Shown here: positions 29,039-47,969 of the stretch, piece by piece
How the letters are laid out: every line of letters starts with the position of its first letter
Position numbering within the stretch: position 1 is the stretch's first letter
DNA from: Zooshikella harenae
GTDB taxonomy: Bacteria > Pseudomonadota > Gammaproteobacteria > Pseudomonadales > Zooshikellaceae
DNA length: 64,000 nucleotides
Assembly: GCF_018837975.1 (NCBI RefSeq)
Contig: NZ_JAGSOY010000008.1
Span: forward strand, 17,164 to 81,163
Reading direction: 5' to 3'
Translations under genes and position numbers: made by a program
Notes under the pieces: model-generated
Database searches by the model: none
What the model was told of the DNA's origin: nothing
The model's input: the letters and a program-made list of their open reading frames with translations, nothing else

Positions 29039-29056
29039 GTTTCAGGAGTAATTACT

Positions 29057-29749: not shown

Positions 29750-29794
29750 TTTTAGTTATTTAACTTTACATTAACTTAATAATTGTAACTGGAT

Positions 29795-30145
29795 ATGGCT
29801 AAAAAAAAGGCTATATTGCCTGAAAAGTGGCAACAGGAAAAAAAAGCACTTAAAGCAGTCCAAGTCGCATTTGACTTAGGTGAAGAAATTCATTTATCTA
29901 TTCGCCGAGAGGCAGTAGATAAGCACTTAAATCCTTCAGATCTTATCAGAGAGATTCTTGGACTGCCTATTAACAAAAAGCCTCAACGGCCACGCTTATC
30001 TATCTCATTGTCACCCGATGACTTTACTTTTCTTGCTGAAAAGTTTGATCTGGCACCAGATGATAAAGTACAGATTAAACATAAAGCAGCCGAAGCACTA
30101 GTTGAATATGCTTTAGGTAAACCCCAACAACGGACAGATGAATAA
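29795..30145 (+). CDS. Small hypothetical protein with two ribbon-helix-helix-like segments
   Basis: VQVAFDLGEEIHLSIRREAVDKHLNPSDLIREIL and PRLSISLSPDDFTFLAEKF each fit a beta-strand/helix RHH pattern; its stop overlaps the next ATG (TAATG). Confidence 0.4.
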   Translation: MAKKKAILPEKWQQEKKALKAVQVAFDLGEEIHLSIRREAVDKHLNPSDLIREILGLPINKKPQRPRLSISLSPDDFTFLAEKFDLAPDDKVQIKHKAAEALVEYALGKPQQRTDE

Positions 30146-30774: not shown

Positions 30775-31063
30775 AAGTCAGACCTAGTCTTATATTCGCT
30801 ACGTGTAGGCATTTCCTATGCTGACCCCAAGAGATATACCCAAACCTATAGAAATAGGTATTAAACTGATGACTATTACAAAGTAAACTTTGCCAACGAA
30901 TTGCAAAAATATGAGCAAATTATTTCAAGTAATATCCTTTGTTAATAAATTATTTTAGACACTTTATAATTAACTATGGCTAAACGTGACGAGTAAACCA
31001 TAAAAAAGGTGTGTGATAAGTATAATTCCAGCACTTAAACGAATTCATCCCAAGGAGTATTTT

Positions 31064-32938: not shown

Positions 32939-32942
32939 TGAC

Positions 32943-32968
32943 TATATACCCATAGTAAAGGGTATATA
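32943..32968 (+). other. Perfect 9-bp hairpin (TATATACCC-N8-GGGTATATA) just after the flotillin stop; no T-run
   Basis: Read directly; may be an RNA processing or stability element rather than an intrinsic terminator. Confidence 0.3.
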
Positions 32969-33275
32969 AACTAAAAAAACATAAAGATGCTTAAACCAAT
33001 GCTGGCTGTATTGCAGTCAGCATTAACGTCTTCGTGTACTACAGGCTCAGGAAAGTAATGGTTCAAGATGAAGCTGGACACATACCAAAGACTCCATCGC
33101 TACGAAGACAAAAATTAATGAGTTCAACCATTCCTCAAATTAACAGATTACCAAACTCAGCTAACGATCATTACCCTACATCACTTTTGTACAACAAAAA
33201 TGACCTTTTTATTTCTACTGCAAAGCGGTATTAAATTGATGATTTCTTTAGCTGTTTCAGTAAGAGGTTGTAACC

Positions 33276-36200
33276 GTGTCTAATAATACAGAACAAGTAT
33301 TGGAACAAGCTGTCCATCAAGAGGGAACTTACGAAGTTTTAAGGAAACGCCTCCAACAGCAGGCATCAGCCTTAAATGAAAAAATCGCTCAGCTAAATGA
33401 ACAACGCATTACAGCCTTTGGTAAAACAGAAACCTCAATTATTAACCGTGTTCGAGCTAGAACAGAAAATAATTGTGTTGCACGCGATATTGTCAGAATA
33501 GGCAATCAGCTGCTGTTTGGTTTTAATGTTTTCATGGGGCTAAAGAAAGAGCACTCTATTAATGATGTTTTTGCGCTTTACCAGCTTTCAGAAGAAAGCT
33601 CAAATGAATTACAAATTACGCCTATCGAACTCAAAACCAGCTTTCTTAATGAACAAAAGTTTCTAGATGACTTTAAAGAGCTTTACACTTATTACAAACA
33701 TGCCAAATTAATTCAACTTCGGGTCACCAATAATAAACTCCTTGCCGCATTCCAAATCGGTCAAAAAGTAGGTGACATTCGTGTCTTTCGCTGGTCACTA
33801 GACAATGCTATTCCCAGCTATATTGATAATCGTGGAGAACGCGATATCACCCTACCAGCAACCCATGACTTCGAGTGGATTCCCACATCAAGAGACAATC
33901 ATGTACTAGGTGAACATCCACATATCAATATACTCGATAAGGTGTTTATTGAGACGATTAATGGCGACCTCACCATTAAGATTGAAAATAATACGACTGA
34001 TGGTCAAGGCATTTATAGTGAACCAGTGGACGATTTACACCAATCACTTGATGATGCAGAAGTCTACTATGCTGACCTTATTGATCTGATTTTGCTCAAA
34101 GTAAAACCTTACCGCGAAGAATCTTACCGTTACTTAATTTTTAATACACTGCTCAATACAGTCACGCGCATCGATGAATTAGGTTCATCGTGTCAACAGT
34201 TGCCCGAAAATCACGGAATAATTTATCCTGGAGGTTACTACCTCACAACAGGTGAACACAAAACATTTTCAACCATTAATACCAAAAATTTAGTCTATAA
34301 ACGAACAATCAAGTCTCCCAATGGGGAAGATATACTTTATGTATATTATGAACCCATTGCAGGACGTTTTGTATTATGTGCATATAACCTCATTACCAAA
34401 ACTTTAAATAATCCTATCGAAGGCCATGGTTATGCATTGTACCCTGATGGGAAAATGATCATTTTCTCTGATAGTGGTGAAGAACCAACACATATTCACC
34501 CTATGCAAATCTGGCAAACACCTTTCGTCAGTGACGAATTTGCTAGCGCCCAGGAAACAGCTACTGGTTTATTCGCAACATTAGGTAATGCAGAACTTGT
34601 CCGGGCAATTTCGGACTTATACAGCATTAGTAAAGCAATTTTACAGTTACAGCCAAGCACTCAAGTTTATACATCTCTTATCAACCAGTGTAATACATTA
34701 TTTGATAGTTATTATTGGTTGGATCAACGTGAAGCCGGTGAGTTAGCACCCTTTGTTAAAGAAATTGTCAAAAATGCTGAGTTAGTACTTGATGAATTCG
34801 AAAAAGTTCAACATTTACAAAGTCGTGCAGAAGCCGCATTAAAAAAAGCTGGACAACAACAGAAAGAATTATTAAGTGGACTAACTCCTGAACGCTGGGA
34901 TAACCCAGAACAATTTGTTAACGCACTAAACAGCTTTAAAAAACAGAAAGGTCATCTTCTTACCTTACAAGACACACGCTATATTAATGAAGAACACTTA
35001 GCTGAGCTTAACAAAAAAGTTGATGAAACGATTGATAAAATCAGCCAAGCAACAATCGCTTTTATTAGTAAAGATGAGTCGCTTACCCCCTACCAGCAAA
35101 GACTTGAAACATTTGAAGACGCTATTACAAGCGCAGAGGACTCAAAGTCACTCAAAGTAATTCAAGATGATATTGAACAAACAGCAGAAGGCCTTGATTT
35201 ACTTACGACGATTCTTTCTACACTCGATGTCGAAGACGCTCCAGAGAGAACGCTCATTCTCGAAAAAGTTGCAGAGATATATGCACAAATAAACCAAGTA
35301 AAAGCCAAGTCTCGAAATAAACTAAAGTCAATTAAAGCAACAGAGTCTATTGCTGAGTTTGGGGCCCAATTTAAGCTATTCTCACTCAGTATTACTAATG
35401 CCGTCAGTGTCTGTGATACCCCAGAGCGCTGTGATGAAGAGCTCACTAAGCTAACCGTTCAACTTGAAGAAATTGAAAGCCAATTTGCAGATAATGAGCA
35501 ATATCTTGGCGAAATTCTCAATAAACGTGAAGAGTTATATGACACGTTCCAAAATCTCAAGCAAACACTGCTTGATGAAAGGCAACGCCGAGCACAGCAT
35601 CTATATGAATCAGCAATACGTGTATTAAAAAGCATCGAACGACGTAGCCAAAGCTTTTCCAGCGTTGATGACCTTAATACCTATTTTGCGTCAGATGCTA
35701 TGGTACTGAAAATTCAATCGTTTTCAGACCAGCTTATTACACTGTCAGAAAGCGTTAAAGCTGACGATATTCAATCCCACTTAAAAGGTATAAAAGACCA
35801 GGCTATCAAGTCACTGCGGGATAAATCAGAAATATACTCTGATCAAGGTAAAACATTAAAGCTTGGCAAACACTTATTTAATGTCAATACTCAACAACTA
35901 GATACCAGTTTAATACATAAAGATAATCAGCTTTATATACATTTAAGTGGCACAAATTTCTACCAACTTATAGATAATGAAGAGCTAGCAAATTTAAACG
36001 ATTATTGGAAACAAACGATTTTATCGGAAAATCAATATGTTTACCGTGCAGAATACTTAGCGTATCAAATCATAAAAACAGCCGAAAACCAACAACAAGG
36101 CTGGTCAATAGCAAAACTTCAAGAACTCAAATATGATAATGAACAGCTAATTAAAGCTATTCGTGAATATATGACACCTCGTTATCAAGAAGGTTACCAA

Positions 36201-38642
36201 AAAGGTATTCACGACCATGATTGCGCTAAAATACTAACTGCTTACTTAACATCTCTGGAAACGCAGGGTTTACTAAAATATTCAGGCCTGTCAAGGTGTT
36301 GTGCTGCGTATTTTTGGATATCAGTCCAAGGTAACTCATCTCAGGTAAATGTGCTATCAGGTAAAGCACAAGGCGCCTTTTTACTTGCGAATCAAATGGG
36401 TGAAAGCAAAGCATTAAATGCTCTTACTCATGAGTTGGAAGATTATCTAAAAGCATTTTATCATGAGAAATCACCCAGTTTAGTTATAGACTTTACCAGT
36501 ACTGCTAAGTATTTAATCGAAGTGCTAGCAGTATCTCCCACCCAGTTTATGGTTAGTGTACAGGGGCAGCAATTAGCAGAACAATTTGAGAAAACCCTTC
36601 ACAACTTAAATTATTACAACATATTCGAAAAAACGCTAAGGGAATTAAGCGATAATTTTCAATCACAATGGGAGTTACTGCAACATTGGCTAAGCGCACT
36701 ATCAAAAGAGATACCTGAGAATATACTTAATACTGTTATTGCTGATGCAGTTACTGTCATTTTAACAAATAAAAAACTTTCCCTTAAAGCACTTTCACTT
36801 CCAGAAAGTAATAGCATTCCAGGTCTGTTAGGAGATCATCCTCGAATCCAACAAAGTGAATTAACCTTCTCTCTAGCTGAATTCAATAATCGTTTGCAGC
36901 ACTTTACCCATACTGACACTGTTAACTTTGAAAAACTAGTCAGCATCAAGCAAAAGTTACTTGAAAAAGAACGCAAACGACTACGTCTTGACGACTTCAC
37001 TCCAAAACCTCTAACATCTTTTGTCCGAAACAAACTAATCAATGATGTATACTTTAAAATCATTGGTGACAACCTTGCAAAACAAATGGGAGCTGCAGGT
37101 AACCAGAAACGCTCAGATTTAATGGGCTTATTATTGCTTATTTCACCACCTGGTTATGGTAAAACAACATTAATGGAGTATATCGCCAACCGACTGGGCC
37201 TCGTCTTTGTCAAAGTAAACTGCCCCTCGCTAGGTCATCAAGTCATCTCTCTTGACCCAGAAGAAGCTCCTAATGCAACAGCAAGACAAGAACTTATTAA
37301 ATTAAATTTAAGTTTTGAAATGGGCAATAATGTCATGTTGTATTTGGATGATATACAACACACGCACCCTGAGTTTTTACAAAAGTTTATTTCTTTGTGT
37401 GATGGTACGCGACGCGTGGAAGGTGTTTGGGATGGAGAAACCAAAACTTATGACTTAAGAGGTAAAAAGTTTTGCATTGCAATGGCAGGAAACCCTTATA
37501 CTGAATCAGGCGAAGTTTTCAAGATTCCTGACATGTTAGCTAACCGGGCCGATATTTATAATCTTGGGGATATACTCAGTGGTTCAGAAGAAACGTTTGA
37601 GTTGAGTTACATTGAAAACAGCTTAACCTCTAATTCTGTATTGGCACCATTAGCAACTCGCAACTTAGCTGATGTTTACCATCTGATTAATATGGCTAAA
37701 GGCAAACAGTCGACAAATGGACAATTAGAATACGACTATTCAAGTGCAGAGCTTGAAGAAATATTAAGCGTTATACGAAAGCTTCTCTATATTCAAGAAT
37801 TTGTCCTTAAGGTTAATCAAGCTTACATAAAATCTGCTGCTACAGCAGATGCCTACCGGACCGAACCTCCTTTTAAACTACAAGGAAGTTACCGGAATAT
37901 GAATAAAATGGCTGAAAAAGTGGTTGCCATTATGAATGATGAGGAGCTAAACAACCTGATACTTGACCACTATGTAGGAGAAGCTCAAACATTAACTTTT
38001 GGGGCAGAAGAAAACCTGCTTAAACTTAAAGAGATAATGCAATTTTTGACTGAAGAAGAGTCTGTTCGTTGGCAAAAGATCAAAGATGAGTTTAGTAAAC
38101 GGATTGCACTAGGCGGAGATGAGCAGGATACACTAGCCAAAATAGCTTATCAAATTGCTAGCTTAAATCAAGGTTTAACTGGTATCGAAAAAAGCTTAAG
38201 TCATTCAACATCAACACAAACCTGGTCAGAGCATCTTACTCATTTTCAGCAAACAGTACGCCAGACACTTGGACAGCAACAAAAGCAATCTCTTGCCGCC
38301 AGTAAAATGCTTCAGCATCAATTGGGTAATATCAATAATGCAATGGCAATGATTGGAGAAAACCTGGTAGAAAGTAGTCATGGTTTACAACACATTACGG
38401 CGTTAAGTGAAGCCTGCCAGCAAATCCAGAAAAGCCTTGAAACTATCGACTTTTCTATCAATGTTGTTAACCAGCCAAGTCCAGTATTAGAACAATCACT
38501 GAGCGCACTTGCAAATACCGTAGAGTCATCGCTAATGCCTGTAGTTACGACTATGAATCATAAAATAGGGCTGGATCAAAATATATTGCGTAAAGTTAAT
38601 GAACTCTCAGATCAACTTAAAGCTATTTCGGATCGTCAATAA
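33276..38642 (+). CDS. Giant (1788 aa) multidomain protein: N-terminal beta-rich region, about 750 aa of coiled coil, and a C-proximal AAA+ ATPase of MoxR/dynein (AAA_5)-like type
   Basis: Single uninterrupted ORF; GTG start with AAGAGG at -8; Walker A LLISPPGYGKTTL at about aa 1290; Walker B VMLYLDDIQH; sensor-1 FCIAMAGNPY; ARADIYNLGD; no family recognised. Confidence 0.7.
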   Translation: MSNNTEQVLEQAVHQEGTYEVLRKRLQQQASALNEKIAQLNEQRITAFGKTETSIINRVRARTENNCVARDIVRIGNQLLFGFNVFMGLKKEHSINDVFALYQLSEESSNELQITPIELKTSFLNEQKFLDDFKELYTYYKHAKLIQLRVTNNKLLAAFQIGQKVGDIRVFRWSLDNAIPSYIDNRGERDITLPATHDFEWIPTSRDNHVLGEHPHINILDKVFIETINGDLTIKIENNTTDGQGIYSEPVDDLHQSLDDAEVYYADLIDLILLKVKPYREESYRYLIFNTLLNTVTRIDELGSSCQQLPENHGIIYPGGYYLTTGEHKTFSTINTKNLVYKRTIKSPNGEDILYVYYEPIAGRFVLCAYNLITKTLNNPIEGHGYALYPDGKMIIFSDSGEEPTHIHPMQIWQTPFVSDEFASAQETATGLFATLGNAELVRAISDLYSISKAILQLQPSTQVYTSLINQCNTLFDSYYWLDQREAGELAPFVKEIVKNAELVLDEFEKVQHLQSRAEAALKKAGQQQKELLSGLTPERWDNPEQFVNALNSFKKQKGHLLTLQDTRYINEEHLAELNKKVDETIDKISQATIAFISKDESLTPYQQRLETFEDAITSAEDSKSLKVIQDDIEQTAEGLDLLTTILSTLDVEDAPERTLILEKVAEIYAQINQVKAKSRNKLKSIKATESIAEFGAQFKLFSLSITNAVSVCDTPERCDEELTKLTVQLEEIESQFADNEQYLGEILNKREELYDTFQNLKQTLLDERQRRAQHLYESAIRVLKSIERRSQSFSSVDDLNTYFASDAMVLKIQSFSDQLITLSESVKADDIQSHLKGIKDQAIKSLRDKSEIYSDQGKTLKLGKHLFNVNTQQLDTSLIHKDNQLYIHLSGTNFYQLIDNEELANLNDYWKQTILSENQYVYRAEYLAYQIIKTAENQQQGWSIAKLQELKYDNEQLIKAIREYMTPRYQEGYQKGIHDHDCAKILTAYLTSLETQGLLKYSGLSRCCAAYFWISVQGNSSQVNVLSGKAQGAFLLANQMGESKALNALTHELEDYLKAFYHEKSPSLVIDFTSTAKYLIEVLAVSPTQFMVSVQGQQLAEQFEKTLHNLNYYNIFEKTLRELSDNFQSQWELLQHWLSALSKEIPENILNTVIADAVTVILTNKKLSLKALSLPESNSIPGLLGDHPRIQQSELTFSLAEFNNRLQHFTHTDTVNFEKLVSIKQKLLEKERKRLRLDDFTPKPLTSFVRNKLINDVYFKIIGDNLAKQMGAAGNQKRSDLMGLLLLISPPGYGKTTLMEYIANRLGLVFVKVNCPSLGHQVISLDPEEAPNATARQELIKLNLSFEMGNNVMLYLDDIQHTHPEFLQKFISLCDGTRRVEGVWDGETKTYDLRGKKFCIAMAGNPYTESGEVFKIPDMLANRADIYNLGDILSGSEETFELSYIENSLTSNSVLAPLATRNLADVYHLINMAKGKQSTNGQLEYDYSSAELEEILSVIRKLLYIQEFVLKVNQAYIKSAATADAYRTEPPFKLQGSYRNMNKMAEKVVAIMNDEELNNLILDHYVGEAQTLTFGAEENLLKLKEIMQFLTEEESVRWQKIKDEFSKRIALGGDEQDTLAKIAYQIASLNQGLTGIEKSLSHSTSTQTWSEHLTHFQQTVRQTLGQQQKQSLAASKMLQHQLGNINNAMAMIGENLVESSHGLQHITALSEACQQIQKSLETIDFSINVVNQPSPVLEQSLSALANTVESSLMPVVTTMNHKIGLDQNILRKVNELSDQLKAISDRQ

Positions 38643-38657
38643 AATATATTTTTCACT

Positions 38658-39239
38658 ATGATTAATTCAAAGATTACTAATATTTCCCGCTGGAAGTGTG
38701 TAATAGGTTTACTAGGTTTCATGTGGATACTACACATGGTAAACCTACTACTCGGCTATCAGCTCAATCAATTTGGGTTAGTGCCTCGTACCACAAGTCA
38801 TTTTACTGCAATATTTTATTGGAGCTTTTTGCATGGTAGTCTTGACCACTTACTTACCAATAGCATCCCTTTCACAATTTTAGGACTATTGGTAGCTGTA
38901 CGCGGGAGCTACTACTTCTTTTTAACAACTCTGTTTATTAGTATTACATCTGGTATCGTCGTATGGCTGTTTGGTAGAACAGCCATACACATTGGAGCCA
39001 GTGTATTAATTTATGGCTATTTTGGCTTTCTAATAAGTCGAGCTTGGTTTGACCGGCAACCTCTCTCACTTATCATTGCTCTTATTGTCGTTATCACCTA
39101 TAGCGGCTTAATTTTTGGGCTATTTCCAAGCACACAACAGATCTCATGGGAAGGCCATTTAGCAGGATTAATAAGTGGCAGCCTCATGGCATGGCTTTTG
39201 TGTAAACAAAAACCTACTAAAAAGCAATTACAGGAGTAA
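38658..39239 (+). CDS. Rhomboid-family intramembrane serine protease-like protein
   Basis: 193 aa, six hydrophobic helices; candidate catalytic Ser in HIGASVLIYGYFG and His in WEGHLAGLISG; starts 16 nt after the giant gene. Confidence 0.55.
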   Translation: MINSKITNISRWKCVIGLLGFMWILHMVNLLLGYQLNQFGLVPRTTSHFTAIFYWSFLHGSLDHLLTNSIPFTILGLLVAVRGSYYFFLTTLFISITSGIVVWLFGRTAIHIGASVLIYGYFGFLISRAWFDRQPLSLIIALIVVITYSGLIFGLFPSTQQISWEGHLAGLISGSLMAWLLCKQKPTKKQLQE

Positions 39240-39244
39240 TAACT

Positions 39245-39487
39245 ATGAGTACAACAACACACGACTACATCAAGCTGGCAACCTACGCAGTAAACATTTT
39301 TGCGAGTGATGGTAAGCTAAATGCACACGAGTTTGACCAATTAATGACTATTGCTCTTCGCGATGGTGTTGTTGATGACGATGAAAAAAGAGTGTTAACA
39401 AACATTCTCAATAAAGTAAGAGCAGAAGAAATGACGGATGACTTACAAGCGAAAATTACCCAAGTTAGAGAAAAGTATAATTTCTAA
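39245..39487 (+). CDS. Small TerB-like (tellurite-resistance TerB / DjlA N-domain-like) protein
   Basis: 80 aa; IFASDGKLNAHEFDQLMTIALRDGVVDDDEKRVL matches the ADG-x-L...E...L TerB pattern; AGGAG at -9; starts 6 nt after the rhomboid gene. Confidence 0.45.
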   Translation: MSTTTHDYIKLATYAVNIFASDGKLNAHEFDQLMTIALRDGVVDDDEKRVLTNILNKVRAEEMTDDLQAKITQVREKYNF

Positions 39488-39587: not shown

Positions 39588-39643
39588 TTCACTATGAGAT
39601 GAATTTTGTTACTCTAAAATTTACCTGCATTCAGTGAGTGATC

Positions 39644-40339
39644 ATGACAATATTACAAGAACAACAAATTATCGAGTCTTGGTATAAAAACGCTAAATCA
39701 TGGACTGATGCTATTAAAAATAAACAAATTGCAAGTAGAGAACATACTACTAATCAGGCCGTTATTGATGCTATTCTCACCTATTCACCTAAGACTGTTC
39801 TCGACATTGGCTGTGGTGAAGGTTGGTTAACACGAACTTTAACAAGCCATAACATCAATACTTATGGCATTGATACAGTACCAGAACTCATTGCTTATGC
39901 TCAACATCAGGGACAGGGAAAATTCAGCTTGATGTCATATGATAATATTAATCCTAATACAATTCAGGATAAATTTGATATTGCTGTGTGCAATTTTTCA
40001 CTCTTTGGTAAACACTCAGTTAATAATCTGATAAAGAAAATACCCCGCCTATTGAATGATAAAGGGTATTTTATTTTACAAACACTTCACCCACTTATTG
40101 AGCACAACAATAGAGTGTATCAAGATGGCTGGAGGGAAGGATCTTGGTGTAGTTGTGGTAACAGCTTTTCTGATCCGGCTCCATGGTACTTTCGCACGCT
40201 TGCCTCATGGGTCGACCTTTTAGCTGATTGTCATTTTTTAGTAACAAGTATCAAAGAGCCAAAACCTCAGGACACCCCTCATCCATTATCTATCATATTT
40301 ATATGTCAAAAAACTGAGATTGACCACCATACTTCATAA
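39644..40339 (+). CDS. Class I SAM-dependent methyltransferase
   Basis: Motif I VLDIGCGEGWLT; the post-I acidic residue and motif II (DIAVCNF) are present; the ORF track starts at GTG 39638. Confidence 0.7.
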   Translation: MTILQEQQIIESWYKNAKSWTDAIKNKQIASREHTTNQAVIDAILTYSPKTVLDIGCGEGWLTRTLTSHNINTYGIDTVPELIAYAQHQGQGKFSLMSYDNINPNTIQDKFDIAVCNFSLFGKHSVNNLIKKIPRLLNDKGYFILQTLHPLIEHNNRVYQDGWREGSWCSCGNSFSDPAPWYFRTLASWVDLLADCHFLVTSIKEPKPQDTPHPLSIIFICQKTEIDHHTS

Positions 40340-40353: not shown

Positions 40354-41508
40354 CTACTTTTCTACATCTTGCATAATATGAAATATGTGTTTTTTTAGAT
40401 CCAGCAACTTTTCCGCTTCCAAAATACAAAGCCCCATTAACCTTGCACGTTCTTTATTATGTACATTAAAGTTTCCAAATGATGCGATGACGCCACAAGC
40501 ATTTTTACCACCTAATCGATGTAATAATGCTTCCATTTTATATATTGTATTAATTCCACTCTTTCTTTGAGCCAAAAAATTCCTAGCTTTACACTCAATA
40601 ATAAATAACTGATTATTTGCTAAAAATACAACATCTAACTCATTTCTAACGGTACTATTTCCATAGTCCCAGACAACTTCAACTCCTCTGGCAACATCTT
40701 GAATATACTCACTTTCTCTCGCTATTTTATCTAACTCAGAAAAAACATATTCCTCTAACCAAAAACCATTACAGAATGCCCTATCCTCTTCACTAGAAAA
40801 AATTAAACGCTTTTTCTCTAACGTAACCAAGTGGTAGAACTCCAAAGAACCCACAAGCTCTTGAAGCTGAGCATTATAATACTCCTGGCTGGATAGCCGC
40901 CTAGAACATAACTTTAGGTTATTCGCTGTTGAGGCTAAATGATTTAGTAGTGCCAACCCTTTGGTCAAGTGCCTAGCACGTTTAACCCATCGTTTACCTA
41001 AACGTTGAGCTTCTTGGGAAATCTTACTCGTTTGCTGGTGCGTAACTGCAACGCCCTGTAGCTGAAAATAGCGCTCAATTGAGAGATGATCTTCTAGGTT
41101 TATAACCCCTTTATTTGCAGGGTTATTTAGCCAAACAACTACATCACTTGTTTGATTGACCTGAAAAATACCCAAATTTTCCTGTTTAAAAACCTCATAA
41201 GCTGCAATCGCTAAAACTTTATTTCCTCCTGAAATATTTAGCTCATAGTCAACTTTATCTGGATACTGCAATAACGCACTAATTGTAATTAAAAGATCAT
41301 TGAAGTTCCAAGCATCATCTATAAAAACTGTTTTAGTAGTAATTCCTATTTCTTCTATGAAAGCCGATGCACTATTAACAGCTTGCTGTAAACGTGTTAT
41401 AGCAACAAAAACAACTTCATTTGGTTGCATTCTAGAATCAAGAATAGGGGTCACATTTGCACTTACAGATTCACTAAATAAAATAATTTGTACTCTTTTT
41501 TTAGCCAT
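40354..41508 (-). CDS. Card1/Can2-like protein: N-terminal Rossmann/CARF-like domain plus C-terminal PD-(D/E)xK nuclease (DUF1887-like)
   Basis: C-terminal ELDVVFLANNQLFIIECKARN gives D...(13)...E-x-K; the N-terminal half is predicted alpha/beta with an ISGGNK loop; about 384 aa, matching Card1/Can2 size; the first ATG is the fifth codon after the track's TTG start. Confidence 0.55.
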   Translation of the reverse strand: MAKKRVQIILFSESVSANVTPILDSRMQPNEVVFVAITRLQQAVNSASAFIEEIGITTKTVFIDDAWNFNDLLITISALLQYPDKVDYELNISGGNKVLAIAAYEVFKQENLGIFQVNQTSDVVVWLNNPANKGVINLEDHLSIERYFQLQGVAVTHQQTSKISQEAQRLGKRWVKRARHLTKGLALLNHLASTANNLKLCSRRLSSQEYYNAQLQELVGSLEFYHLVTLEKKRLIFSSEEDRAFCNGFWLEEYVFSELDKIARESEYIQDVARGVEVVWDYGNSTVRNELDVVFLANNQLFIIECKARNFLAQRKSGINTIYKMEALLHRLGGKNACGVIASFGNFNVHNKERARLMGLCILEAEKLLDLKKHIFHIMQDVEK

Positions 41509-41736
41509 CACAGTACTCGTCAAGTAAGCGAAAGTCTTATCTTTTCATTGCTAAATGTAAAATACCATACGCACTGTAACTTTTTGCAAAACATGACCAA
41601 TAAAATAATTAGAACAACTCAAGCATTACACTTAAAAAGTGAATCAGAAACGGGGTACTGAATAGACATCAGATAACACAATGATCGTATCTGATACAGA
41701 CTCATACAATCTTATTCAAAAGGATAAATCATGAAA

Positions 41737-41767
41737 TAAAAAAACCACCTAACGGTGGTTTTTTTAT
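41737..41767. terminator. Bidirectional rho-independent terminator (AAAAAAACCACC-TAAC-GGTGGTTTTTTTATT)
   Basis: 7-bp stem flanked by an A-run on one side and a T-run on the other; sits between the Card1-like gene start and the stop of the HTH gene. Confidence 0.65.
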
Positions 41768-41782
41768 TGAAAGAGTATATAC

Positions 41783-42265
41783 CTAGTGGCAACCAAGCTT
41801 ATGTAACTCTACTGCATTCTCAAGCCATTCTACTAACTGAGAGAGAGAATACTTTTGGCTTTGCATCCGCTCTGTGCATTCTTCCACAATATGATCAGGT
41901 GCATCAGTTAATAGTTTAATAAGTTGTCTTGCCTGGTCCCTCATCTCTTTAGGGAGACATGTAAAAACTGAAAGAAAGTGCCTTTCATCAGGCATAAGAG
42001 TGCCTGGAGACTCTTCAACCCCCAGTAGATAATCCATCGGAACTAACAATACATGGGTTAATTTGCGAAGTATATCACTATACAGACTGACAGATTCACT
42101 AGTAGGTATACCTTGCACAAGTAACTGCTCAATAACAGAGACATCAACACCAGAGCGCGTTGCAAGCTCATCTACATCGATTTCTATATCAATCATTGCT
42201 TGCCGCAAACGCGTTGAAAGCTGCTGACTTAACCCTACGTCAGCCATCATAAAAGGAATTTCCAT
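41783..42265 (-). CDS. Hypothetical protein with an XRE-like helix-turn-helix
   Basis: 160 aa; IDVDELATRSGVDVSVIEQLLVQG resembles an HTH_XRE recognition region; followed by the bidirectional terminator. Confidence 0.45.
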   Translation of the reverse strand: MEIPFMMADVGLSQQLSTRLRQAMIDIEIDVDELATRSGVDVSVIEQLLVQGIPTSESVSLYSDILRKLTHVLLVPMDYLLGVEESPGTLMPDERHFLSVFTCLPKEMRDQARQLIKLLTDAPDHIVEECTERMQSQKYSLSQLVEWLENAVELHKLGCH

Positions 42266-42684: not shown

Positions 42685-43365
42685 TTACCCTATCACGTTC
42701 AATTTATTGTGCCAGTAAAACGTGTTTACTGGACTATCGTTAGTAGTCAATAATGTTTTCCAACAACAATAAATGTCCAAAATGCTATTTACAGTAAACT
42801 CTTTTTTCCAAAACTGTCGACCATAAAGAAAACTCAAGGCAAATTCGCGCCAACTTAAAAAACAAGAAAAAGCTAAATCAGCAGCTTCGAATATACATTC
42901 CCAAGCTTTTTCTTCACTGATATAACCCACGAAGGCCCCTCGCCTAAACAGATGAATACATGTAGCAATATCCCATGCTTTAATTCCCATATGAGTTAAT
43001 TCTGGAAGACTACGTTTTACAAACTGGAGAACCTGGTACTCTTCTTGCTCCTGTTTATAGGTATCAATATACGATAATTGCCTTTTACTATCGATTGTAT
43101 TCAAAAACCTTGCTCTTGCACTAAAGGCAGCATTATACCCCCCCTGCTCAATTAACCAGTTTTTTAATTCAATGAGAGAGCTTCCACAAGTTACTTTCCA
43201 ATCTCTTTGCAACTGGGTTCGCCAATGGTTTTTATATTCTTCACTATCATCACAGCCAAATAATGTTTGGTTAGCGTCTTCCAGAAGAACATCATGAAGA
43301 CAGGCCAGTCCGATAGCCCTCATCTGTTGAGATGTGTGTTGAGGGGGGTAATTAAACTTCATCAT
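42685..43365 (-). CDS. DUF1266 (YbeU-like) protein
   Basis: 226 aa; last gene of an hscC/djlC/ybeU-like trio that mirrors the E. coli ybeU-djlC-hscC locus; family call from memory. Confidence 0.55.
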   Translation of the reverse strand: MMKFNYPPQHTSQQMRAIGLACLHDVLLEDANQTLFGCDDSEEYKNHWRTQLQRDWKVTCGSSLIELKNWLIEQGGYNAAFSARARFLNTIDSKRQLSYIDTYKQEQEEYQVLQFVKRSLPELTHMGIKAWDIATCIHLFRRGAFVGYISEEKAWECIFEAADLAFSCFLSWREFALSFLYGRQFWKKEFTVNSILDIYCCWKTLLTTNDSPVNTFYWHNKLNVIG

Positions 43366-43378
43366 CTAGTTTTTGACC

Positions 43379-45751
43379 TTATGGACAAATATTTAAGCTA
43401 CTTGGCTCTTCATCAGAAACTAAGGCAAAATCAGCCCAATTAATTACATCCAAAAGTGAATATATATTAATGAATATTTTTTGATACTCTTTTTCATCAA
43501 CACACATCGTGTTTTGCATATTTGTTGATTCAGACGCCAGTACAATCCAATGATTAATCAATAAAAGCCATTGTTCATAGTCTTCACTAAACACATTAAG
43601 TAGTCTTTTTGCTTTAACCCAATGACGCATTGCAGCAACAAAATTTTGCATACCAAATTCAGCCAATCCTAATAAAACTTGACTAGCTGCAGATTGCTCT
43701 TCTTTTACAGTCATCGCCCCAGTTGCTTTACTGGGATTACATTCCCAAATATACAGTAAGCTTGAAAAAAAACTGTGAATACTTACAGCTAAAACTGGGG
43801 GAAAGTGACCATTAGACTCAATACTTTTTAATAAATCAAAGGCAGAAGAATATTGTTTTTGCAAAAATAGAATAATAAGTTTATGCCAAAGCCACCAAGT
43901 ACTCACTGATGCAGCCTTATCAAAAACCTCAAATAAATCAACTAGTTGATCAATTTTTTTATAGGTTATACATAAATAAATACATCGTCGAACCAGACTT
44001 TGACATGTAAATACTTCCCAAGCTTGTACAGCATAATCTAGAGCATCTTTTGTGCGATTCAGGCCAAAGCTTGCTTCAGTTAATATCCATAAAAGCCGTA
44101 GTGAAAATCTCACACGATATAAATCATTTTTATTAATATAATTCACTACCTTTTGATATTCATTTAAGGCTAATAAGCAAGCAGCAATCTCCACTTTTGC
44201 ATTGATATTTGCATTATCTATGTGAACACATTTACGGAAACTGGTTAACGCCTGCTGGTAATTTTTTACTAGATAGTAACATTGTCCTAATCGAAACCAA
44301 TCATTCGCGGATATATCAAGCTGTGTTAATACTGATTGGTAATCCTTAATCGCATCACTGTAATTTGCCAATTCAAAATTACAGCGAGCACGACATGATA
44401 AGTAAATATGATTATCATCATTGATATCAATATTAATCAAATTCAGTGCATGCAGGTAATAACCCAACTCTAAATAACAGACCACTAGTTCTTTTTTAGC
44501 TTCAGTACATACCTCCTCACACTGCTGTATGTACGTAATATAATGTTTAGCATCAGCATGTCTGTTTAAGTTTGTACAAACTTTAATTTTGAATAAAATA
44601 CTCCATACAGCAAGCCGATAATCCTGTATTGCAGGCAACTGATTTAAAGTAGTTAGTGCTTCATTCGCTTTTCCTAAAGCTAAGGATACCTTTACCTTAA
44701 GTAAGGCAGTTACAACTTTAAGCACATGACTCTCAAACTCTTGAAAATCAATTTCAGCAAGTAATATTAGCATTCTCTCATTAATAGGTGCCTCAAGCAG
44801 CCTCACTAACGCACTTTCGATTTCATCAGAAGGTATTTGGTTTGAGTTTAAAAGTGATGTATAAAGCCCATGGATGGCCTCATGATTCTGAGGATCAATA
44901 TTAAAAATCAAAGTGTAAATATTTAAAGACTGGCTCCAGTTTTTTTGTTTTACTTCTATTGTTGCAATTCTTAATAAGAAATCAAGATCATTATCTAACT
45001 GATAACCAGCATAAAAACAGTCTTTAGCTCGTTCCAACAAATTAGCTAGCTCAAATGAACACCCTAGCAATCTCAGGAGCACAGGATCTGCATCATAGAT
45101 TGCGTATGCAGACATCAAATGCTCAATTGCAGACCTAATATCATTACAGATTAAAGCATGACGCCCTTCAAGTCTCCGTTGTAAATACTCATCAGCATTG
45201 ACTGATGGTAGCCCTTGCAGTCCATCATAAGTTAAAAATCCAGGGCCATCTTTAAAACTTCCAAAAAAACGATCAACTAAGCTTTCAGGATACTGGCGAT
45301 AAAAAATCCACTGATTAGCTATCCAGTCAAAGTGACAACTTAAGCGTTTTAAAATAGTTGGGGGAACAAAAGGGTGATCTAAAAAAAACCGTAATAATTG
45401 TACAGAAAGCTCTTCTTTCGCTTCTTTGTTCAGACCATTTATACTTAATAACCAGTTATCCCAAACAATACTCTGTACTCTTTGTGAAAAGTCAGAATAA
45501 ATCATCTCAACAGCGTACAGTGCTTGTTCTACACCAGTCATCCCTACGTTATGCTGATGAAGCCGGTAACCATCAACATCTAACTTATTATGCTTAGCGC
45601 TTAACAGAGCTTGCTCATAAGCCTCTCTTAAACCCTGAAATGCGGACACATCATCTAAATGACCAAGTGCTTTTAGCTGCTTAGCATAAGCTTTCTTAAT
45701 TGCCTGCACATCACTTGTAGGCTTAATCCTTAATTGTTCCCAACAGTCCAT
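43379..45751 (-). CDS. DjlC-like co-chaperone: N-terminal J-like domain (HLD in place of HPD) plus a long TPR-repeat region
   Basis: MDCWEQLRIKPTSDVQAIKKAYAKQLKALGHLDD aligns to a J-domain helix II-loop with HPD replaced by HLD; many TPR-like repeats follow; the track starts at GTG 45760. Confidence 0.6.
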   Translation of the reverse strand: MDCWEQLRIKPTSDVQAIKKAYAKQLKALGHLDDVSAFQGLREAYEQALLSAKHNKLDVDGYRLHQHNVGMTGVEQALYAVEMIYSDFSQRVQSIVWDNWLLSINGLNKEAKEELSVQLLRFFLDHPFVPPTILKRLSCHFDWIANQWIFYRQYPESLVDRFFGSFKDGPGFLTYDGLQGLPSVNADEYLQRRLEGRHALICNDIRSAIEHLMSAYAIYDADPVLLRLLGCSFELANLLERAKDCFYAGYQLDNDLDFLLRIATIEVKQKNWSQSLNIYTLIFNIDPQNHEAIHGLYTSLLNSNQIPSDEIESALVRLLEAPINERMLILLAEIDFQEFESHVLKVVTALLKVKVSLALGKANEALTTLNQLPAIQDYRLAVWSILFKIKVCTNLNRHADAKHYITYIQQCEEVCTEAKKELVVCYLELGYYLHALNLINIDINDDNHIYLSCRARCNFELANYSDAIKDYQSVLTQLDISANDWFRLGQCYYLVKNYQQALTSFRKCVHIDNANINAKVEIAACLLALNEYQKVVNYINKNDLYRVRFSLRLLWILTEASFGLNRTKDALDYAVQAWEVFTCQSLVRRCIYLCITYKKIDQLVDLFEVFDKAASVSTWWLWHKLIILFLQKQYSSAFDLLKSIESNGHFPPVLAVSIHSFFSSLLYIWECNPSKATGAMTVKEEQSAASQVLLGLAEFGMQNFVAAMRHWVKAKRLLNVFSEDYEQWLLLINHWIVLASESTNMQNTMCVDEKEYQKIFINIYSLLDVINWADFALVSDEEPSSLNICP

Positions 45752-45777
45752 AGCGATCACTTTTAGTTAACTTAAAA

Positions 45778-47466
45778 CTACATTTCTGCTTCCAAGTGGT
45801 CTAACAAAGCACTTACTTCATGGTAAGCTTCCGCAATATAGTGCTGATCCTGACGAGCTAAAGCCGTTTCAAAGTCAACAATGAGCTGTCCTATTAATAT
45901 TCTCTTTTCACCTAAAGCTTGTTCAAAGAGGCGCTCACCTCTTGCCAGTAAAAAACGATTTGGCAAGTGTTCTCGAGGATGAATTTTCAAACGGCTTAAT
46001 GCTTGTAGTCGTTGAGTAATTTCTTCTGCTGAAAACTGCCCAGGATTTTTTTCAATAACTGTTGAAAAAGTTTCTGTGGTTGATAGCACAGTTACTTCAA
46101 CCTCAAGCAATCCATTTACATCATAGGTAAAACGAACATCAACCGCTTCTTGACCAGCTTGTGCCGTAGGAACATCAACGGAAATATCTCCTAATTTTAT
46201 ATTATTCTTAACCCGCCGACTTTCTCCTTGATAAATTTGAATACATACTTTTGATTGTCGGTCTGCTGTAGTATAAAAACGTTCCACACGTGAAATCGGA
46301 ATAATACAATTTCTTTCTAATATTGGCTGATAAAGTCCTGTTTCTGTGTATTTACCTCGTGATGCTGCCACCTCAACCCCTAATGAATAAGGACAAACAT
46401 CGGTCATTACCACTTCTTCAAGTGCTTTATCCTGTACAAGCAGTCCAGCCTGTATTGCTGCCCCCATTGCAATAACCTGATCCGGATCTATCCCAGTAAC
46501 GGGAAATCGTGAAAATATCTTGGTCGCCATCGTTTTGACCATCGGCATGCGTGTAGCCCCACCGACTAAAATTAACTGATCGATATCTGTTGGCAGAAAA
46601 CCAGCGTCTTTTAGCACCCTTTCCACAGGTTTACGTAAACGATCCAATAAGTTTGCAGCTACTTGCTCAAACTCTGATCGTTTAATATCCATTTCTATCG
46701 AGGCAGATGCTAATACTACTTTCAAAGTAGTCTGCTGTTTCGTACTTAATTCATGTAAAACACGTTTCACTGCTTGCCGTAGTGTCGTACGCTCTGTTTG
46801 TGTCAGTGACTCCAAAATAATCGCCTGCTTTGCACAACAGTAACGTACCAACTGCTCTAAAAAGTCCTCTCCACCTAAATGGTTGTCACCTGCACTGGCA
46901 TTGACTTCTATAACACCGTCAAACAGTTCAAGTAGTGATACATCGAAAGTCCCGCCACCTAAGTCAAGTACTATCACCCGTTGCTCACGCTGTTCCTGAA
47001 TACCATAAGCAAGTGCCGCTGCAGTTGGCTCATTAACCAAACGAGTTACCTTCAATCCTGCTATTTCACCTGCCAAGCGCGTCATTCTGCGCTGATGCTC
47101 GCTAAAATAAGCTGGTACACTAATCACTGCTTCGGAAATATGCTGTCCAGTGTAGTTTTCCGCATCTTCTTTCAAGGCCCGTAAGACAAACGAGGCAAGT
47201 TCATGAGGTAAGAACTGTTGCGCACCCAGACCAATCTCACGTTGACTTCCCATATATCGCTTAAATACTTCAAAGGTATGAAGAGGGTGGGTAAACAGAC
47301 GCTCCTGTGCCACACGACCAACGACTATATCACCGTTATCGTCAAGACCAACGACAGAAGGTGTAAGCTTTTCACCTAAAGCATTGGGAATAACATCTGT
47401 CTTACCGTTTTGCCAAATAGCGATAAGCGAATGTGTAGTGCCAAGATCGATGCCTACAATACTCAT
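45778..47466 (-). CDS. hscC: Hsp70-family chaperone HscC (Hsc62-like)
   Basis: 562 aa; MSIVGIDLGTTHSLIAIWQNG...PSVVG; DLGGGTFDVSLL; shorter than DnaK with a truncated lid, as in HscC. Confidence 0.85.
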   Translation of the reverse strand: MSIVGIDLGTTHSLIAIWQNGKTDVIPNALGEKLTPSVVGLDDNGDIVVGRVAQERLFTHPLHTFEVFKRYMGSQREIGLGAQQFLPHELASFVLRALKEDAENYTGQHISEAVISVPAYFSEHQRRMTRLAGEIAGLKVTRLVNEPTAAALAYGIQEQREQRVIVLDLGGGTFDVSLLELFDGVIEVNASAGDNHLGGEDFLEQLVRYCCAKQAIILESLTQTERTTLRQAVKRVLHELSTKQQTTLKVVLASASIEMDIKRSEFEQVAANLLDRLRKPVERVLKDAGFLPTDIDQLILVGGATRMPMVKTMATKIFSRFPVTGIDPDQVIAMGAAIQAGLLVQDKALEEVVMTDVCPYSLGVEVAASRGKYTETGLYQPILERNCIIPISRVERFYTTADRQSKVCIQIYQGESRRVKNNIKLGDISVDVPTAQAGQEAVDVRFTYDVNGLLEVEVTVLSTTETFSTVIEKNPGQFSAEEITQRLQALSRLKIHPREHLPNRFLLARGERLFEQALGEKRILIGQLIVDFETALARQDQHYIAEAYHEVSALLDHLEAEM

Positions 47467-47969
47467 GGCAACTCCATTGCAGATAATGATTGGTAAATTC
47501 AGGCTCAGTTAACAAAATCTTTTTGTTATCAGATAGTTTAATTTGATAACAATTATAAAGATAAAAGACTAAATAAAGTGCGAAATGTACCAAGCTAGTA
47601 AATACCATTTGTCGGCTTATAGAGCAGCAACAGTAAAGTTGTATTTAGCTGTGAGGAATATCTATTTTATAAAGTGAACAGTGTAACTTTTATAATCCTT
47701 TTTTGTTTTATAGTCTGTTCAGACTGACCAAACTACACAACGAATTATGAGAAATAACATAGATATACTCTACGCGAATAAATTTTAAGCTTTGTTGCCT
47801 GCACGCTTGACCAGCAAGGATGTTGGGAATGCAGTTCATGCAGGCGCTTTTAACTGTCACTCCAGTCGCTTATAGAAACCTCTGGAGTTTCTTCACTTGA
47901 CGGCCGCACCCTTGTGCCCTAGGGGTATAAAAATCCTCCATTATGGATATATTCTTTAGCTAGCAATAT

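What the first reader, a model, noticed from the sequence alone, without database searches (positions are those of the whole stretch)
42685..47466. HscC (Hsp70) / DjlC-like J-TPR / DUF1266 chaperone trio placed directly downstream of the T6SS regulator
The trio reproduces the poorly understood E. coli hscC-djlC-ybeU locus. Here the co-chaperone is 793 aa long with an extensive TPR array.

The trio sits between an AT-rich accessory region and the vasH end of the T6SS cluster. The function of HscC-type Hsp70 systems is still essentially unknown. In E. coli, Hsc62 has been reported to interact with sigma-70.

The placement next to a secretion system and a defence-like island raises the possibility of a specialised role, for example effector handling or stress and conflict sensing.
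Basis: partly seen in the sequence, partly recalled or inferred. Interest (0 to 1): 0.6.

Follow-up and report, generated by a model that had tools for sequence, protein, structure and literature searches.

The report
HscC chaperone cassette with degenerate co-chaperone
The three genes are a real, intact copy of a widespread, self-contained HscC-type Hsp70 chaperone cassette; it sits beside the type VI secretion genes only in this bacterial family, and its one unusual feature is a co-chaperone that has lost the catalytic J-domain motif and the membrane anchor.

Summary
On the minus strand of this Zooshikella harenae window lie an HscC-type Hsp70 (45778-47466), a 790/793-aa DjlB/DjlC-family protein with a long TPR solenoid (43379-45751/45760), and a DUF1266 protein (42685-43365). 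They lie between the vasH end of a T6SS cluster and a lower-GC region.

The proposed link to T6SS or defence is not supported.
- In 80 HscC loci from other species (25 proteobacterial, 55 Bacillota; up to 10 kb of flank each side), none carries any T6SS gene tested.
- None carries a Card1, DUF3686 or PspA homologue.
- All 80 carry a DjlB/C-like J protein next to hscC, and 33 carry DUF1266.
- Adjacency to T6SS is confined to Zooshikellaceae.
- In Spartinivicinus about 6 kb of unrelated genes intervene. In one strain the co-chaperone is truncated and DUF1266 is deleted, while clpV and vasH remain.

One feature is new. The J-like domain reads GHL/GNL where 83 of 88 HscC-linked J domains read xP[D/E], and it has no tail anchor. 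All three genes are nevertheless under purifying selection (dN/dS 0.05-0.2). It therefore looks like a bacterial "type IV" pseudo-J protein encoded in the same cassette as a dedicated Hsp70.

This is a new variant of a known kind and of modest interest.

The parts
45778..47466 (-). hscC: HscC-type Hsp70, 562 aa
   Evidence: Pfam HSP70, E 4e-135. It is 44.6% identical (479 bits) to E. coli HscC, against 311 bits to DnaK and 265 bits to HscA. It shares all HscC-specific insertions and deletions. It falls in the HscC clade of an NJ tree. A GGAG ribosome-binding site lies 7 nt before the ATG.
43379..45751 (-). DjlB/DjlC-family co-chaperone-like protein, 790 aa (793 aa if the GTG at 45760 is used), with no predicted transmembrane segment
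   Evidence: BLASTP to E. coli DjlB and DjlC gives E 9e-10 and 9e-9 over about aa 2-115. PF27158 (DjlB_C_2nd) is on record for P0001 and named in the orthologue loci. TPR Pfam hits. AlphaFold2 model, mean pLDDT 70.7. The highest Kyte-Doolittle 19-residue window scores 1.48, against 1.99 and 2.39 for the DjlC and DjlB tail anchors.
45587..45751 (-). J-like domain (aa 1-55) lacking the HP[D/E] triad; it reads G30-H31-L32
   Evidence: Alignments. Model helices at 3-7, 15-28 and 35-55. Pfam DnaJ scores 13.2 bits, below the cut-off. dN/dS 0.11.
45257..45535 (-). DjlB_C_2nd-type helical domain (about aa 73-165)
   Evidence: Precomputed PF27158 hits. Sequence block conserved with distant homologues. 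pLDDT 80-87. dN/dS is 0.07-0.15 for aa 59-200.
43922..45196 (-). TPR-like alpha-solenoid (about aa 186-610), followed by a low-confidence helical C-terminal region that evolves faster
   Evidence: AlphaFold2 secondary structure and pLDDT. Foldseek matches only generic TPR superhelices, with TM-scores of 0.15-0.46. PDB sequence hits are to consensus TPR proteins. dN/dS is 0.18-0.20, rising to 0.27-0.35 after aa 560.
42685..43365 (-). DUF1266 protein, 226 aa (a YbeU/YbeR-like third subunit)
   Evidence: Pfam DUF1266, E 7e-30. BLASTP to YbeR gives 2e-8 and to YbeU 1e-5. dN/dS 0.13-0.16. Predicted all-alpha, but the model is weak, with pLDDT 54.
47523..47619 (-). Conserved non-coding block with a TATAAT box upstream of hscC; a candidate promoter or operator of the trio
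   Evidence: Alignment of the vasH-hscC intergenic regions of three Zooshikella species. No sigma-54 consensus lies on this strand. No terminator-like site was found in the gap.

Best explanation
This is an autonomous three-gene HscC chaperone cassette. It is the Zooshikellaceae version of the E. coli hscC-djlC-ybeU module and is not a part of the T6SS.

Proposed working model:
- HscC is an ATP-driven Hsp70 clamp that needs no GrpE-type exchange factor.
- The 790-aa protein is its dedicated targeting subunit. An N-terminal J-like hairpin and the DjlB_C_2nd domain would dock on HscC. A solenoid of more than 400 residues would act as the platform that binds clients or partners.
- DUF1266 is a third, all-alpha accessory subunit that works with the TPR scaffold.

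In this lineage the co-chaperone is cytosolic because the tail anchor is lost. Its J-like domain has lost the xP[D/E] triad. It most likely recruits or holds HscC at its target without the canonical J-stimulated ATPase step, or it stimulates HscC in a non-canonical way. This is the behaviour proposed for type IV pseudo-J proteins.

Shown here: the family identities, the autonomy of the cassette from its genomic context, the loss of the motif and the anchor, and purifying selection on all three genes.

Inferred: the docking geometry, the role of DUF1266, and the lack of ATPase stimulation. The clients are unknown.
For: HscC identity:
- Higher BLAST scores to HscC than to DnaK or HscA.
- All HscC hallmark insertions and deletions listed by Mayer 2021 (PMC8215388) are present.
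- Catalytic and J-interface residues K70, R71, R167, E171, T173 and D393 (DnaK numbering) are retained.
- Clades with HscC in the NJ tree.
- Most of the named proteins among the top 120 homologues are called HscC.

Autonomy of the cassette:
- 80 of 80 HscC loci have a DjlB/C-like J protein adjacent, and 33 of 80 have DUF1266 right after it.
- Two loci (L078, L086) fuse J, TPR and DUF1266 in one protein.
- No other neighbour family recurs beyond generic ABC transporters, histidine kinases, LysR regulators and chemoreceptors.
- There are no T6SS, Card1, DUF3686 or PspA hits.
- The same long, anchor-less J-TPR plus DUF1266 architecture occurs in a gammaproteobacterial MAG (metagenome-assembled genome; L013) and in Paenibacillus (L030, L032, L037).

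DUF1266:
- It is often fused to TPR, Sel1 or ankyrin scaffolds.
- In E. coli the locus carries separate Sel1-repeat genes, ybeQ and ybeT.

Motif and anchor:
- 83 of 88 HscC-linked J domains have xP[D/E].
- Zooshikella has GHL or GNL and Spartinivicinus has DLA.
- No transmembrane segment is predicted.

Functionality: dN/dS is 0.05 for HscC, 0.11 for the J-like domain, 0.2 for the whole co-chaperone and 0.13-0.16 for DUF1266.

Literature: changes to the HPD motif abolish ATPase stimulation. HPE is the only replacement that review regards as tolerated, and it is found in DjlB and DjlC. The role of type IV pseudo-J proteins remains open (PMC13254874).
Against: - No biochemical data exist for this protein. 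A one-residue shift of the alignment would place H-L-D at the triad, and only in Z. harenae, so some residual activity cannot be excluded. One de novo designed J analogue without HPD has been reported to work (PMC13254874).
- The trio has stayed near the T6SS end and next to the PspA/DUF3686 cluster in two genera. A lineage-specific functional link is therefore not excluded.
- No terminator was detected between vasH and hscC, so read-through from vasH is possible.
- The AlphaFold2 model of DUF1266 was too poor to test its role.
- The sample of 80 loci is the best-scoring subset of more than 600 pattern matches, not a random draw.
Confidence: 0.75

Rival explanations
1. The trio is a T6SS accessory chaperone system. 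It would load, stabilise or disassemble T6SS effectors or components and be controlled by the adjacent VasH regulator.
For: - hscC starts 503 nt downstream of vasH on the same strand, and no terminator-like site lies between them.
- The adjacency is kept in three Zooshikella species, and proximity (about 6 kb) is kept in Spartinivicinus.
- TPR proteins serve as secretion chaperones elsewhere. There is a weak LcrH/SycD-type match of 49.8 bits.
- In Ralstonia an orphan vgrG-DUF2875-PAAR island lies 3-10 kb from hscC.
Against: - 0 of 80 other HscC loci, 25 of them proteobacterial, carry any T6SS core gene, VgrG or PAAR.
- Most HscC cassettes are in Bacillota.
- No sigma-54 promoter is found; instead the trio has its own conserved promoter-like block.
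- In Spartinivicinus, PilZ, LprI, ankyrin and transposase genes separate the trio from the T6SS end.
- In strain SM1973 the co-chaperone is cut to 262 aa and DUF1266 is deleted, while clpV and vasH persist.
- The LcrH match is far below its cut-off of 104.8 bits.
Confidence: 0.07
2. The trio is an Hsp70-based conflict or anti-phage sensor, in which the TPR array senses an invader. It would belong to a defence island together with the Card1-like nuclease.
For: - A Card1-like CARF/PD-(D/E)xK nuclease and a small HTH-like gene lie just downstream.
- The region has lower GC.
- The C-terminal part of the TPR protein evolves fastest, with dN/dS 0.27-0.35.
Against: - PADLOC finds nothing for the TPR and DUF1266 proteins and only an 18.6-bit hit for HscC.
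- The Card1 and 160-aa genes are absent from the syntenic Spartinivicinus loci and from all 80 other loci.
- HscC homologues in plasmid records are mainly on Ralstonia megaplasmids. Phage records hold only DnaK-like hits at 42% identity or less.
- The full-text library holds no paper linking HscC to phage defence.
Confidence: 0.04
3. The trio works with the neighbouring PspA/DUF2170/DUF3686-AAA/rhomboid cluster in membrane or envelope stress, or in metal stress.
For: - The trio abuts the DUF3686 cluster, convergently, in both Zooshikella and Spartinivicinus.
- E. coli DjlB and DjlC are predicted tail-anchored proteins (membrane insertion shown for DjlC), and an hscC deletion is Cd2+-sensitive (PMC8215388).
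- The Ralstonia hscC sits among mntH and CzcA-type metal efflux genes.
- RND pumps lie near hscC in 5 of 80 loci.
Against: - DUF3686, PspA and the 641-aa protein are found in 0 of 80 other HscC loci.
- The Zooshikella co-chaperone has lost its membrane anchor.
- In Zooshikella, Card1, methyltransferase and other genes are inserted between the two clusters.
Confidence: 0.1
4. The cassette is a decaying remnant whose co-chaperone is already non-functional.
For: - The catalytic triad and the anchor are lost.
- In Spartinivicinus the co-chaperone is truncated in one strain, and DUF1266 is split into 160 and 95 aa in another.
Against: - All three Zooshikella genes are intact in three species.
- dN/dS is 0.05-0.2 at dS up to about 1.
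- The J-like and DjlB_C_2nd parts are the most constrained regions of the co-chaperone.
Confidence: 0.04

Closest known systems
E. coli hscC-djlC-ybeU (plus djlB-ybeR, ybeQ and ybeT) locus
   Same: - An HscC-type Hsp70 with the same insertions and deletions.
- A DjlB/C-family partner with an N-terminal J-type hairpin and the DjlB_C_2nd domain.
- A DUF1266 protein.
- TPR-like repeats take part in both systems; in E. coli they are encoded by separate Sel1-repeat genes.
   Different: - In E. coli djlC and ybeU are transcribed convergently with hscC. Here the three genes are co-directional.
- The E. coli partners are 475-483 aa, have HPE and a C-terminal tail anchor.
- The partner here is 790 aa, carries its own TPR solenoid, has GHL in place of HPE and has no anchor.
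Long, anchor-less J-TPR plus DUF1266 HscC cassettes in Paenibacillus (L030, L032, L037) and a gammaproteobacterial MAG (L013)
   Same: - Same gene order.
- An anchor-less J-TPR protein of about 850-960 aa.
- Homology over about 500-560 residues.
- DUF1266 lies downstream.
- The HscC of L013 is sister to the Zooshikellaceae clade.
   Different: These relatives keep HPE or NPE at the triad.
Type IV 'pseudo' J-domain proteins (Pam16, DNAJB13)
   Same: A recognisable J fold with a non-conservative replacement of HPD, retained by selection (PMC13254874).
   Different: - Those are eukaryotic. Pam16 acts by pairing with a true J protein, Pam18.
- Here the pseudo-J protein is the only J-type gene in an operon with a dedicated bacterial Hsp70.
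- No paired true J protein is seen in the locus.
TPR secretion chaperones (LcrH/SycD, class II T3SS chaperones)
   Same: A short stretch of TPR similarity at aa 461-537 (TIGR02552, 49.8 bits).
   Different: - The score is far below the cut-off of 104.8 bits.
- The size (790 versus about 160 aa) and the architecture differ.
- There is no secretion-system co-occurrence outside this family.

Membership tests
HscC subfamily of Hsp70 | Length of 550-580 aa and closer to HscC than to DnaK or HscA | tested here: met
   562 aa. 479 bits to E. coli HscC, against 311 to DnaK and 265 to HscA. HscC clade in the NJ tree. Criterion taken from PMC8215388.
HscC subfamily of Hsp70 | Deletion of the DnaK 76-101 region, loss of the GrpE signature loop (DnaK 290-295), and a small deletion near D211 | tested here: met
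   The gaps are shared with E. coli HscC in alignment A1, columns 92-120, 311-316 and 225-228. DnaK residues 208-211 are absent in all 80 HscC sequences.
HscC subfamily of Hsp70 | An insertion of 4-8 residues in loop L1,2 of SBD-beta and a deletion of about 9 residues in lid helix B | tested here: met
   Insertion 'AASRG-KYTE' at A1 columns 428-436 and an 8-residue gap at columns 586-593, as in E. coli HscC.
HscC subfamily of Hsp70 | ATPase stimulated only by a DjlC-type partner; no need for GrpE | not testable with these tools
   This needs biochemistry. Catalytic and J-interface residues are conserved.
DjlB/DjlC-type J-domain co-chaperone | N-terminal J-type helical hairpin homologous to DjlB/DjlC, encoded next to hscC | tested here: met
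   BLASTP E 9e-10 and 9e-9. Predicted helices II and III. The gene starts 26 nt after the hscC stop codon (17 nt if the GTG start is used). Pfam DnaJ is sub-threshold, as it also is for DjlC itself (13.2 versus 19.3 bits).
DjlB/DjlC-type J-domain co-chaperone | HPD or HPE (more broadly xP[D/E]) triad in the loop between helices II and III | tested here: not met
   GHL in Z. harenae, GNL in two other Zooshikella species and DLA in Spartinivicinus, against xP[D/E] in 83 of 88 HscC-linked J domains.
DjlB/DjlC-type J-domain co-chaperone | DjlB_C_2nd middle domain (PF27158) | tested here: met
   A precomputed PF27158 hit is on record for P0001, the 100% identical protein, and for all orthologues. 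The local Pfam copy lacks this model, so no score was obtained here.
DjlB/DjlC-type J-domain co-chaperone | C-terminal tail-anchor transmembrane helix | tested here: not met
   The highest 19-residue hydropathy window scores 1.48, equal to soluble HscC, against 1.99 and 2.39 at the C-termini of DjlC and DjlB. Many relatives, but not all, have the anchor.
DUF1266 (YbeU/YbeR family) | Pfam PF06889 above the gathering score | tested here: met
   104.9 bits against a cut-off of 27, covering profile positions 1-175.
T6SS accessory component | Recurrent co-location with T6SS genes across lineages, and/or sigma-54/VasH-dependent promoter | tested here: not met
   0 of 80 loci with T6SS genes. No sigma-54 consensus upstream of hscC.
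Known or candidate anti-phage defence system (PADLOC) | Match to a defence-system protein model | tested here: not met
   No hit for the TPR and DUF1266 proteins. HscC gives only PDC-M61B at 18.6 bits, E 1.5e-4.

The most novel reading that the evidence does not exclude
The Zooshikellaceae co-chaperone would be a selected bacterial pseudo-J (type IV) protein. It would control a dedicated Hsp70 without the canonical HPD-triggered ATPase step. The triad has been lost repeatedly in proteobacterial HscC partners (DLA, DPA, DQA and DQR variants), possibly compensated by a Leu-to-Met change in the HscC interdomain linker. That pattern would mean HscC machines can switch to a J-independent mode in which they are tethered to a TPR scaffold.
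Probability: 0.3. Interest if true: 0.5.

Novelty: new variant of a known kind. Interest (0 to 1): 0.3.

Why it matters
What HscC systems do has been an open question since 2002.

This analysis shows that the conserved unit is hscC plus a DjlB/C-type partner, often with DUF1266. The unit is independent of its genomic context. Searching for its function through its T6SS or defence neighbours is therefore unlikely to pay off.

The analysis also identifies a natural, selectively maintained HscC partner without the HPD/HPE triad. That is a convenient bacterial system for testing what type IV pseudo-J proteins do to their Hsp70.

The J-TPR-DUF1266 fusions, and the fusions of DUF1266 to TPR, Sel1 and ankyrin repeats, point to DUF1266 as a scaffold-associated subunit. 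This is a testable lead for a domain of unknown function.

Tried and rejected
- Exact-sequence look-up of the window HscC and of P0017 found no contig.
- The word-indexed homologue search for DUF1266 returned only 3 proteins. The resulting AlphaFold2 model was too poor (pLDDT 54), so no fold search was run on it.
- Foldseek of the co-chaperone model returned only generic TPR superhelices such as CTR9, APC3, OGT and Tom70/71. A Tom70/Hop-like clamp on the acidic HscC tail remains pure speculation.
- The PDB sequence search gave nothing for DUF1266.
- Rfam and tRNA scans of the window were empty.
- A sigma-54 promoter search gave no site in the right place and orientation. The GG-N8-GC element in the conserved block has the wrong spacing.
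- The sigma-70 and terminator scans were not above the shuffled expectation.
- A weak Pfam DUF488-N3i overlap with DUF1266 in one homologue (26.4 bits) led nowhere in the literature.
- Literature searches found no paper on DUF1266 function or on HscC in defence.
- The excess of Met at the DnaK L391 position in loci with motif-less J domains (8 of 9 against 7 of 71) is confounded by phylogeny. It is not used as evidence.
Full report
**Source and anatomy**

The window comes from Zooshikella harenae. The three proteins have 100%-identical NCBI entries (P0012, P0001 and P0132). On the minus strand lie three genes:
- a 562-aa Hsp70 at 45778-47466;
- a 793-aa ORF at 43379-45760, annotated as 790 aa from the ATG at 45751;
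- a 226-aa ORF at 42685-43365.

They are separated by 17-26 nt and 13 nt. Pfam gives HSP70 (E 4e-135), TPR families, and DUF1266 (E 7e-30).

**The Hsp70 is an HscC**

- It scores 479 bits (44.6% identity, full length) against E. coli HscC, 311 bits against DnaK and 265 bits against HscA.
- Mayer (PMC8215388) lists the HscC hallmarks: a length of 550-580 aa, deletion of DnaK 76-101, loss of the GrpE signature loop, a small deletion near D211, a 4-8 residue insertion in SBD-beta loop L1,2, and a deletion of about 9 residues in lid helix B. All are present.
- The catalytic and J-interface residues are conserved.
- Most of the named proteins among the best 120 database homologues are called HscC.
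- In an NJ tree of 82 sequences it falls inside the HscC clade, away from DnaK and HscA. The tree has no bootstrap support values.

**The middle protein is a DjlB/DjlC relative with a degenerate J domain**

- BLASTP links residues 2-115 to DjlB and DjlC (E 9e-10 and 9e-9).
- The precomputed Pfam family PF27158 (DjlB_C_2nd) is on record for P0001 and its orthologues and is named in their loci.
- An AlphaFold2 model (mean pLDDT 70.7) shows a J-type hairpin with helices at 3-7, 15-28 and 35-55, a helical domain at 73-165, a confident TPR-like solenoid at 186-610, and a poorly predicted helical tail.
- At the position of the HPD triad, E. coli DnaJ and HscB have HPD, and DjlB and DjlC have HPE. 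Z. harenae has G-H-L, two other Zooshikella species have G-N-L, and Spartinivicinus has D-L-A.
- Among 88 J domains encoded next to hscC in 80 other species, 83 keep xP[D/E]: HPE 47, RPD 13, NPE 8, SPE 8, RPE 4, and KPE, HPD and DPD once each. Five proteobacterial ones do not.
- A 2026 review states that even conservative changes to HPD abolish ATPase stimulation, that HPE (found in DjlB and DjlC) seems to be the only replacement tolerated, and that proteins with non-conservative replacements ('type IV' or pseudo-J proteins) remain enigmatic (PMC13254874).
- The protein also lacks the C-terminal tail anchor of DjlB and DjlC.

Two defining features of a DjlC-type co-chaperone, the triad and the anchor, are therefore tested and not met. 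The homology and the operon position are met.

**The genes are not decaying in Zooshikella**

Pairwise dN/dS values among the three species:

| Gene or region | dN/dS |
|---|---|
| HscC | 0.05-0.06 |
| Co-chaperone, whole | 0.19-0.23 |
| J-like domain | 0.11 |
| Residues 59-200 | 0.07-0.15 |
| Residues 560 to end | 0.27-0.35 |
| DUF1266 | 0.13-0.16 |

dS reaches about 1, so the comparison has power.

**Test of the T6SS and defence idea**

- In the three Zooshikella species the order is the same: T6SS, vasH, hscC, J-TPR, DUF1266, a 160-aa gene, Card1 and, in two of the species, a methyltransferase, then an 80-aa gene, a rhomboid and DUF3686.
- In the sister genus Spartinivicinus (HscC about 60% identical) the trio lies about 6 kb from vasH. 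PilZ, LprI and ankyrin-repeat genes, and in strain SM1973 also a transposase gene, lie between them. The trio directly abuts the DUF3686 cluster, and the Card1 and 160-aa genes are absent.
- In strain SM1973 the co-chaperone is cut to 262 aa and DUF1266 is gone, although clpV and vasH remain. In S. poritis DUF1266 is split into 160 and 95 aa.
- A scan of one genome per species with HscC-specific motifs gave more than 600 matches. The best 80 loci were kept, 25 proteobacterial and 55 Bacillota, each with up to 10 kb of flank on each side.
- phmmer with the window's TssA, B, C, E, F, G, H, VasH, DUF3686, Card1, 160-aa, PspA and related proteins, and with Ralstonia VgrG, PAAR and DUF2875, hit none of these 80 loci.
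- All 80 loci carry a DjlB/C-like J protein beside hscC, and 33 carry DUF1266 just after it. Two encode J-TPR-DUF1266 fusions.
- Clustering all flanking ORFs found no other recurrent family apart from abundant generic ones.
- The closest architecture (a long anchor-less J-TPR plus DUF1266) occurs in a gammaproteobacterial MAG and in Paenibacillus, with an intact triad.
- Upstream of hscC there is no sigma-54 consensus in the right orientation. There is a block of about 100 nt with a TATAAT box, conserved in all three species.
- PADLOC has no model matching the trio.
- HscC homologues in plasmid records are mostly on Ralstonia megaplasmids. Phage records hold only DnaK-like sequences.
- The single counter-example is Ralstonia, where an orphan vgrG-DUF2875-PAAR island lies 3-10 kb from hscC. 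The immediate neighbours there are mntH and metal-efflux genes.

**What the 'accessory region' is**

After dnaG and rpoD come DUF2170, a PspA/IM30 protein, two unknown proteins (209 and 641 aa), a 1788-aa DUF3686/DUF7902/AAA protein, a rhomboid and a small TerB-like protein. This is a Psp-type cluster, not a defence island. Only the Card1-like nuclease (PADLOC CARF4--CARF_PDDEXK, E 2.8e-100) and the small 160-aa gene are defence-like, and they are insertions specific to Zooshikella.

**DUF1266**

- An exhaustive search found 1125 representative clusters at E 1e-3 or better.
- Longer members fuse DUF1266 to TPR, Sel1, ankyrin or beta-helix repeats.
- Together with the J-TPR-DUF1266 fusions and the separate Sel1-repeat genes of the E. 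coli locus, this suggests that DUF1266 acts with a repeat scaffold.
- Its fold could not be modelled reliably.

**Conclusion**

The trio is an intact, autonomous HscC cassette. Its position next to the T6SS is family-level synteny without comparative support for a functional link. Its notable feature is a selectively maintained, cytosolic DjlB/C-family partner that has lost the xP[D/E] triad.

The most likely mechanism is TPR-mediated targeting of HscC, with the pseudo-J domain and the DjlB_C_2nd domain acting as a docking module rather than an ATPase trigger. That mechanism is inferred, not shown.

Noticed in passing
window 28601-39487 (+): Directly after dnaG-rpoD lies a cluster of DUF2170, PspA/IM30, 209-aa and 641-aa proteins with no Pfam match, a 1788-aa DUF3686/DUF7902/AAA protein, a rhomboid and an 80-aa TerB-like protein. 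It is kept next to the HscC trio in Zooshikella and Spartinivicinus but is absent from 80 other HscC loci. It looks like an uncharacterised Psp-linked giant-ATPase system.
   Followed up: partly
window 40354-42265 (-): An orphan Card1-like CARF plus PD-(D/E)xK nuclease (389 aa) is preceded by a 160-aa protein with no Pfam match. That protein has a weak capH-like HTH match. It is unusually conserved, with 94-98% amino-acid identity and dN/dS 0.04. No cyclic-oligoadenylate source is visible in the window. Both genes are missing in Spartinivicinus.
   Followed up: partly
loci L010-L089 (J proteins next to hscC): The His of the 'HPD' triad is often not His in HscC partners: RPD in Pseudomonas and Ralstonia, NPE or SPE in clostridia, and RPE in Chitinimonas. 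Only P-[D/E] is near-universal, in 83 of 88. Five proteobacterial partners (L038, L043, L068, L080, L087) lack the motif altogether.
   Followed up: partly
HscC alignment, DnaK position 391 (window HscC 'VVMTD' linker): The interdomain-linker residue equivalent to DnaK L391 is Met in 8 of 9 loci whose J partner lacks the triad, against 7 of 71 others (Fisher p about 2e-6). The test is not corrected for shared ancestry.
   Followed up: partly
L090/L091 (Ralstonia solanacearum megaplasmid CP047137.1, 645-710 kb): hscC and a multi-TM RPD J protein sit between mntH and a response regulator, histidine kinase, TolC and CzcA-type metal efflux set. An orphan vgrG-DUF2875-PAAR island lies 3-10 kb away. 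The metal context echoes the Cd2+ phenotype of the E. coli hscC deletion.
   Followed up: no
L008 7076-9646 and L009 79-2700 (Spartinivicinus): A large ankyrin-repeat protein (856-873 aa) lies directly upstream of hscC. DUF1266-ankyrin fusion proteins exist elsewhere, for example P0190. The ankyrin protein could be an extra scaffold of the module in that genus.
   Followed up: no
window 47523-47619 (-): A non-coding block of about 100 nt with a TATAAT box and a partial TTATCA-N12-TGATAA inverted repeat is conserved upstream of hscC in three Zooshikella species. The rest of the intergenic region is not alignable.
   Followed up: partly
window 60212-63664 (-) and 59441-60190 (-): At the far end of the T6SS cluster, a 1150-aa ORF has no Pfam match at E 1e-5 and sits next to a SapC-family gene. 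It has no homologue in the other loci examined.
   Followed up: no
window 39638-40339 (+): A SAM-dependent methyltransferase (PADLOC mad2-like, E 5e-16) is present in Z. harenae and Zooshikella sp. RANM57 but absent in Z. ganghwensis. This marks the spot as variable.
   Followed up: no
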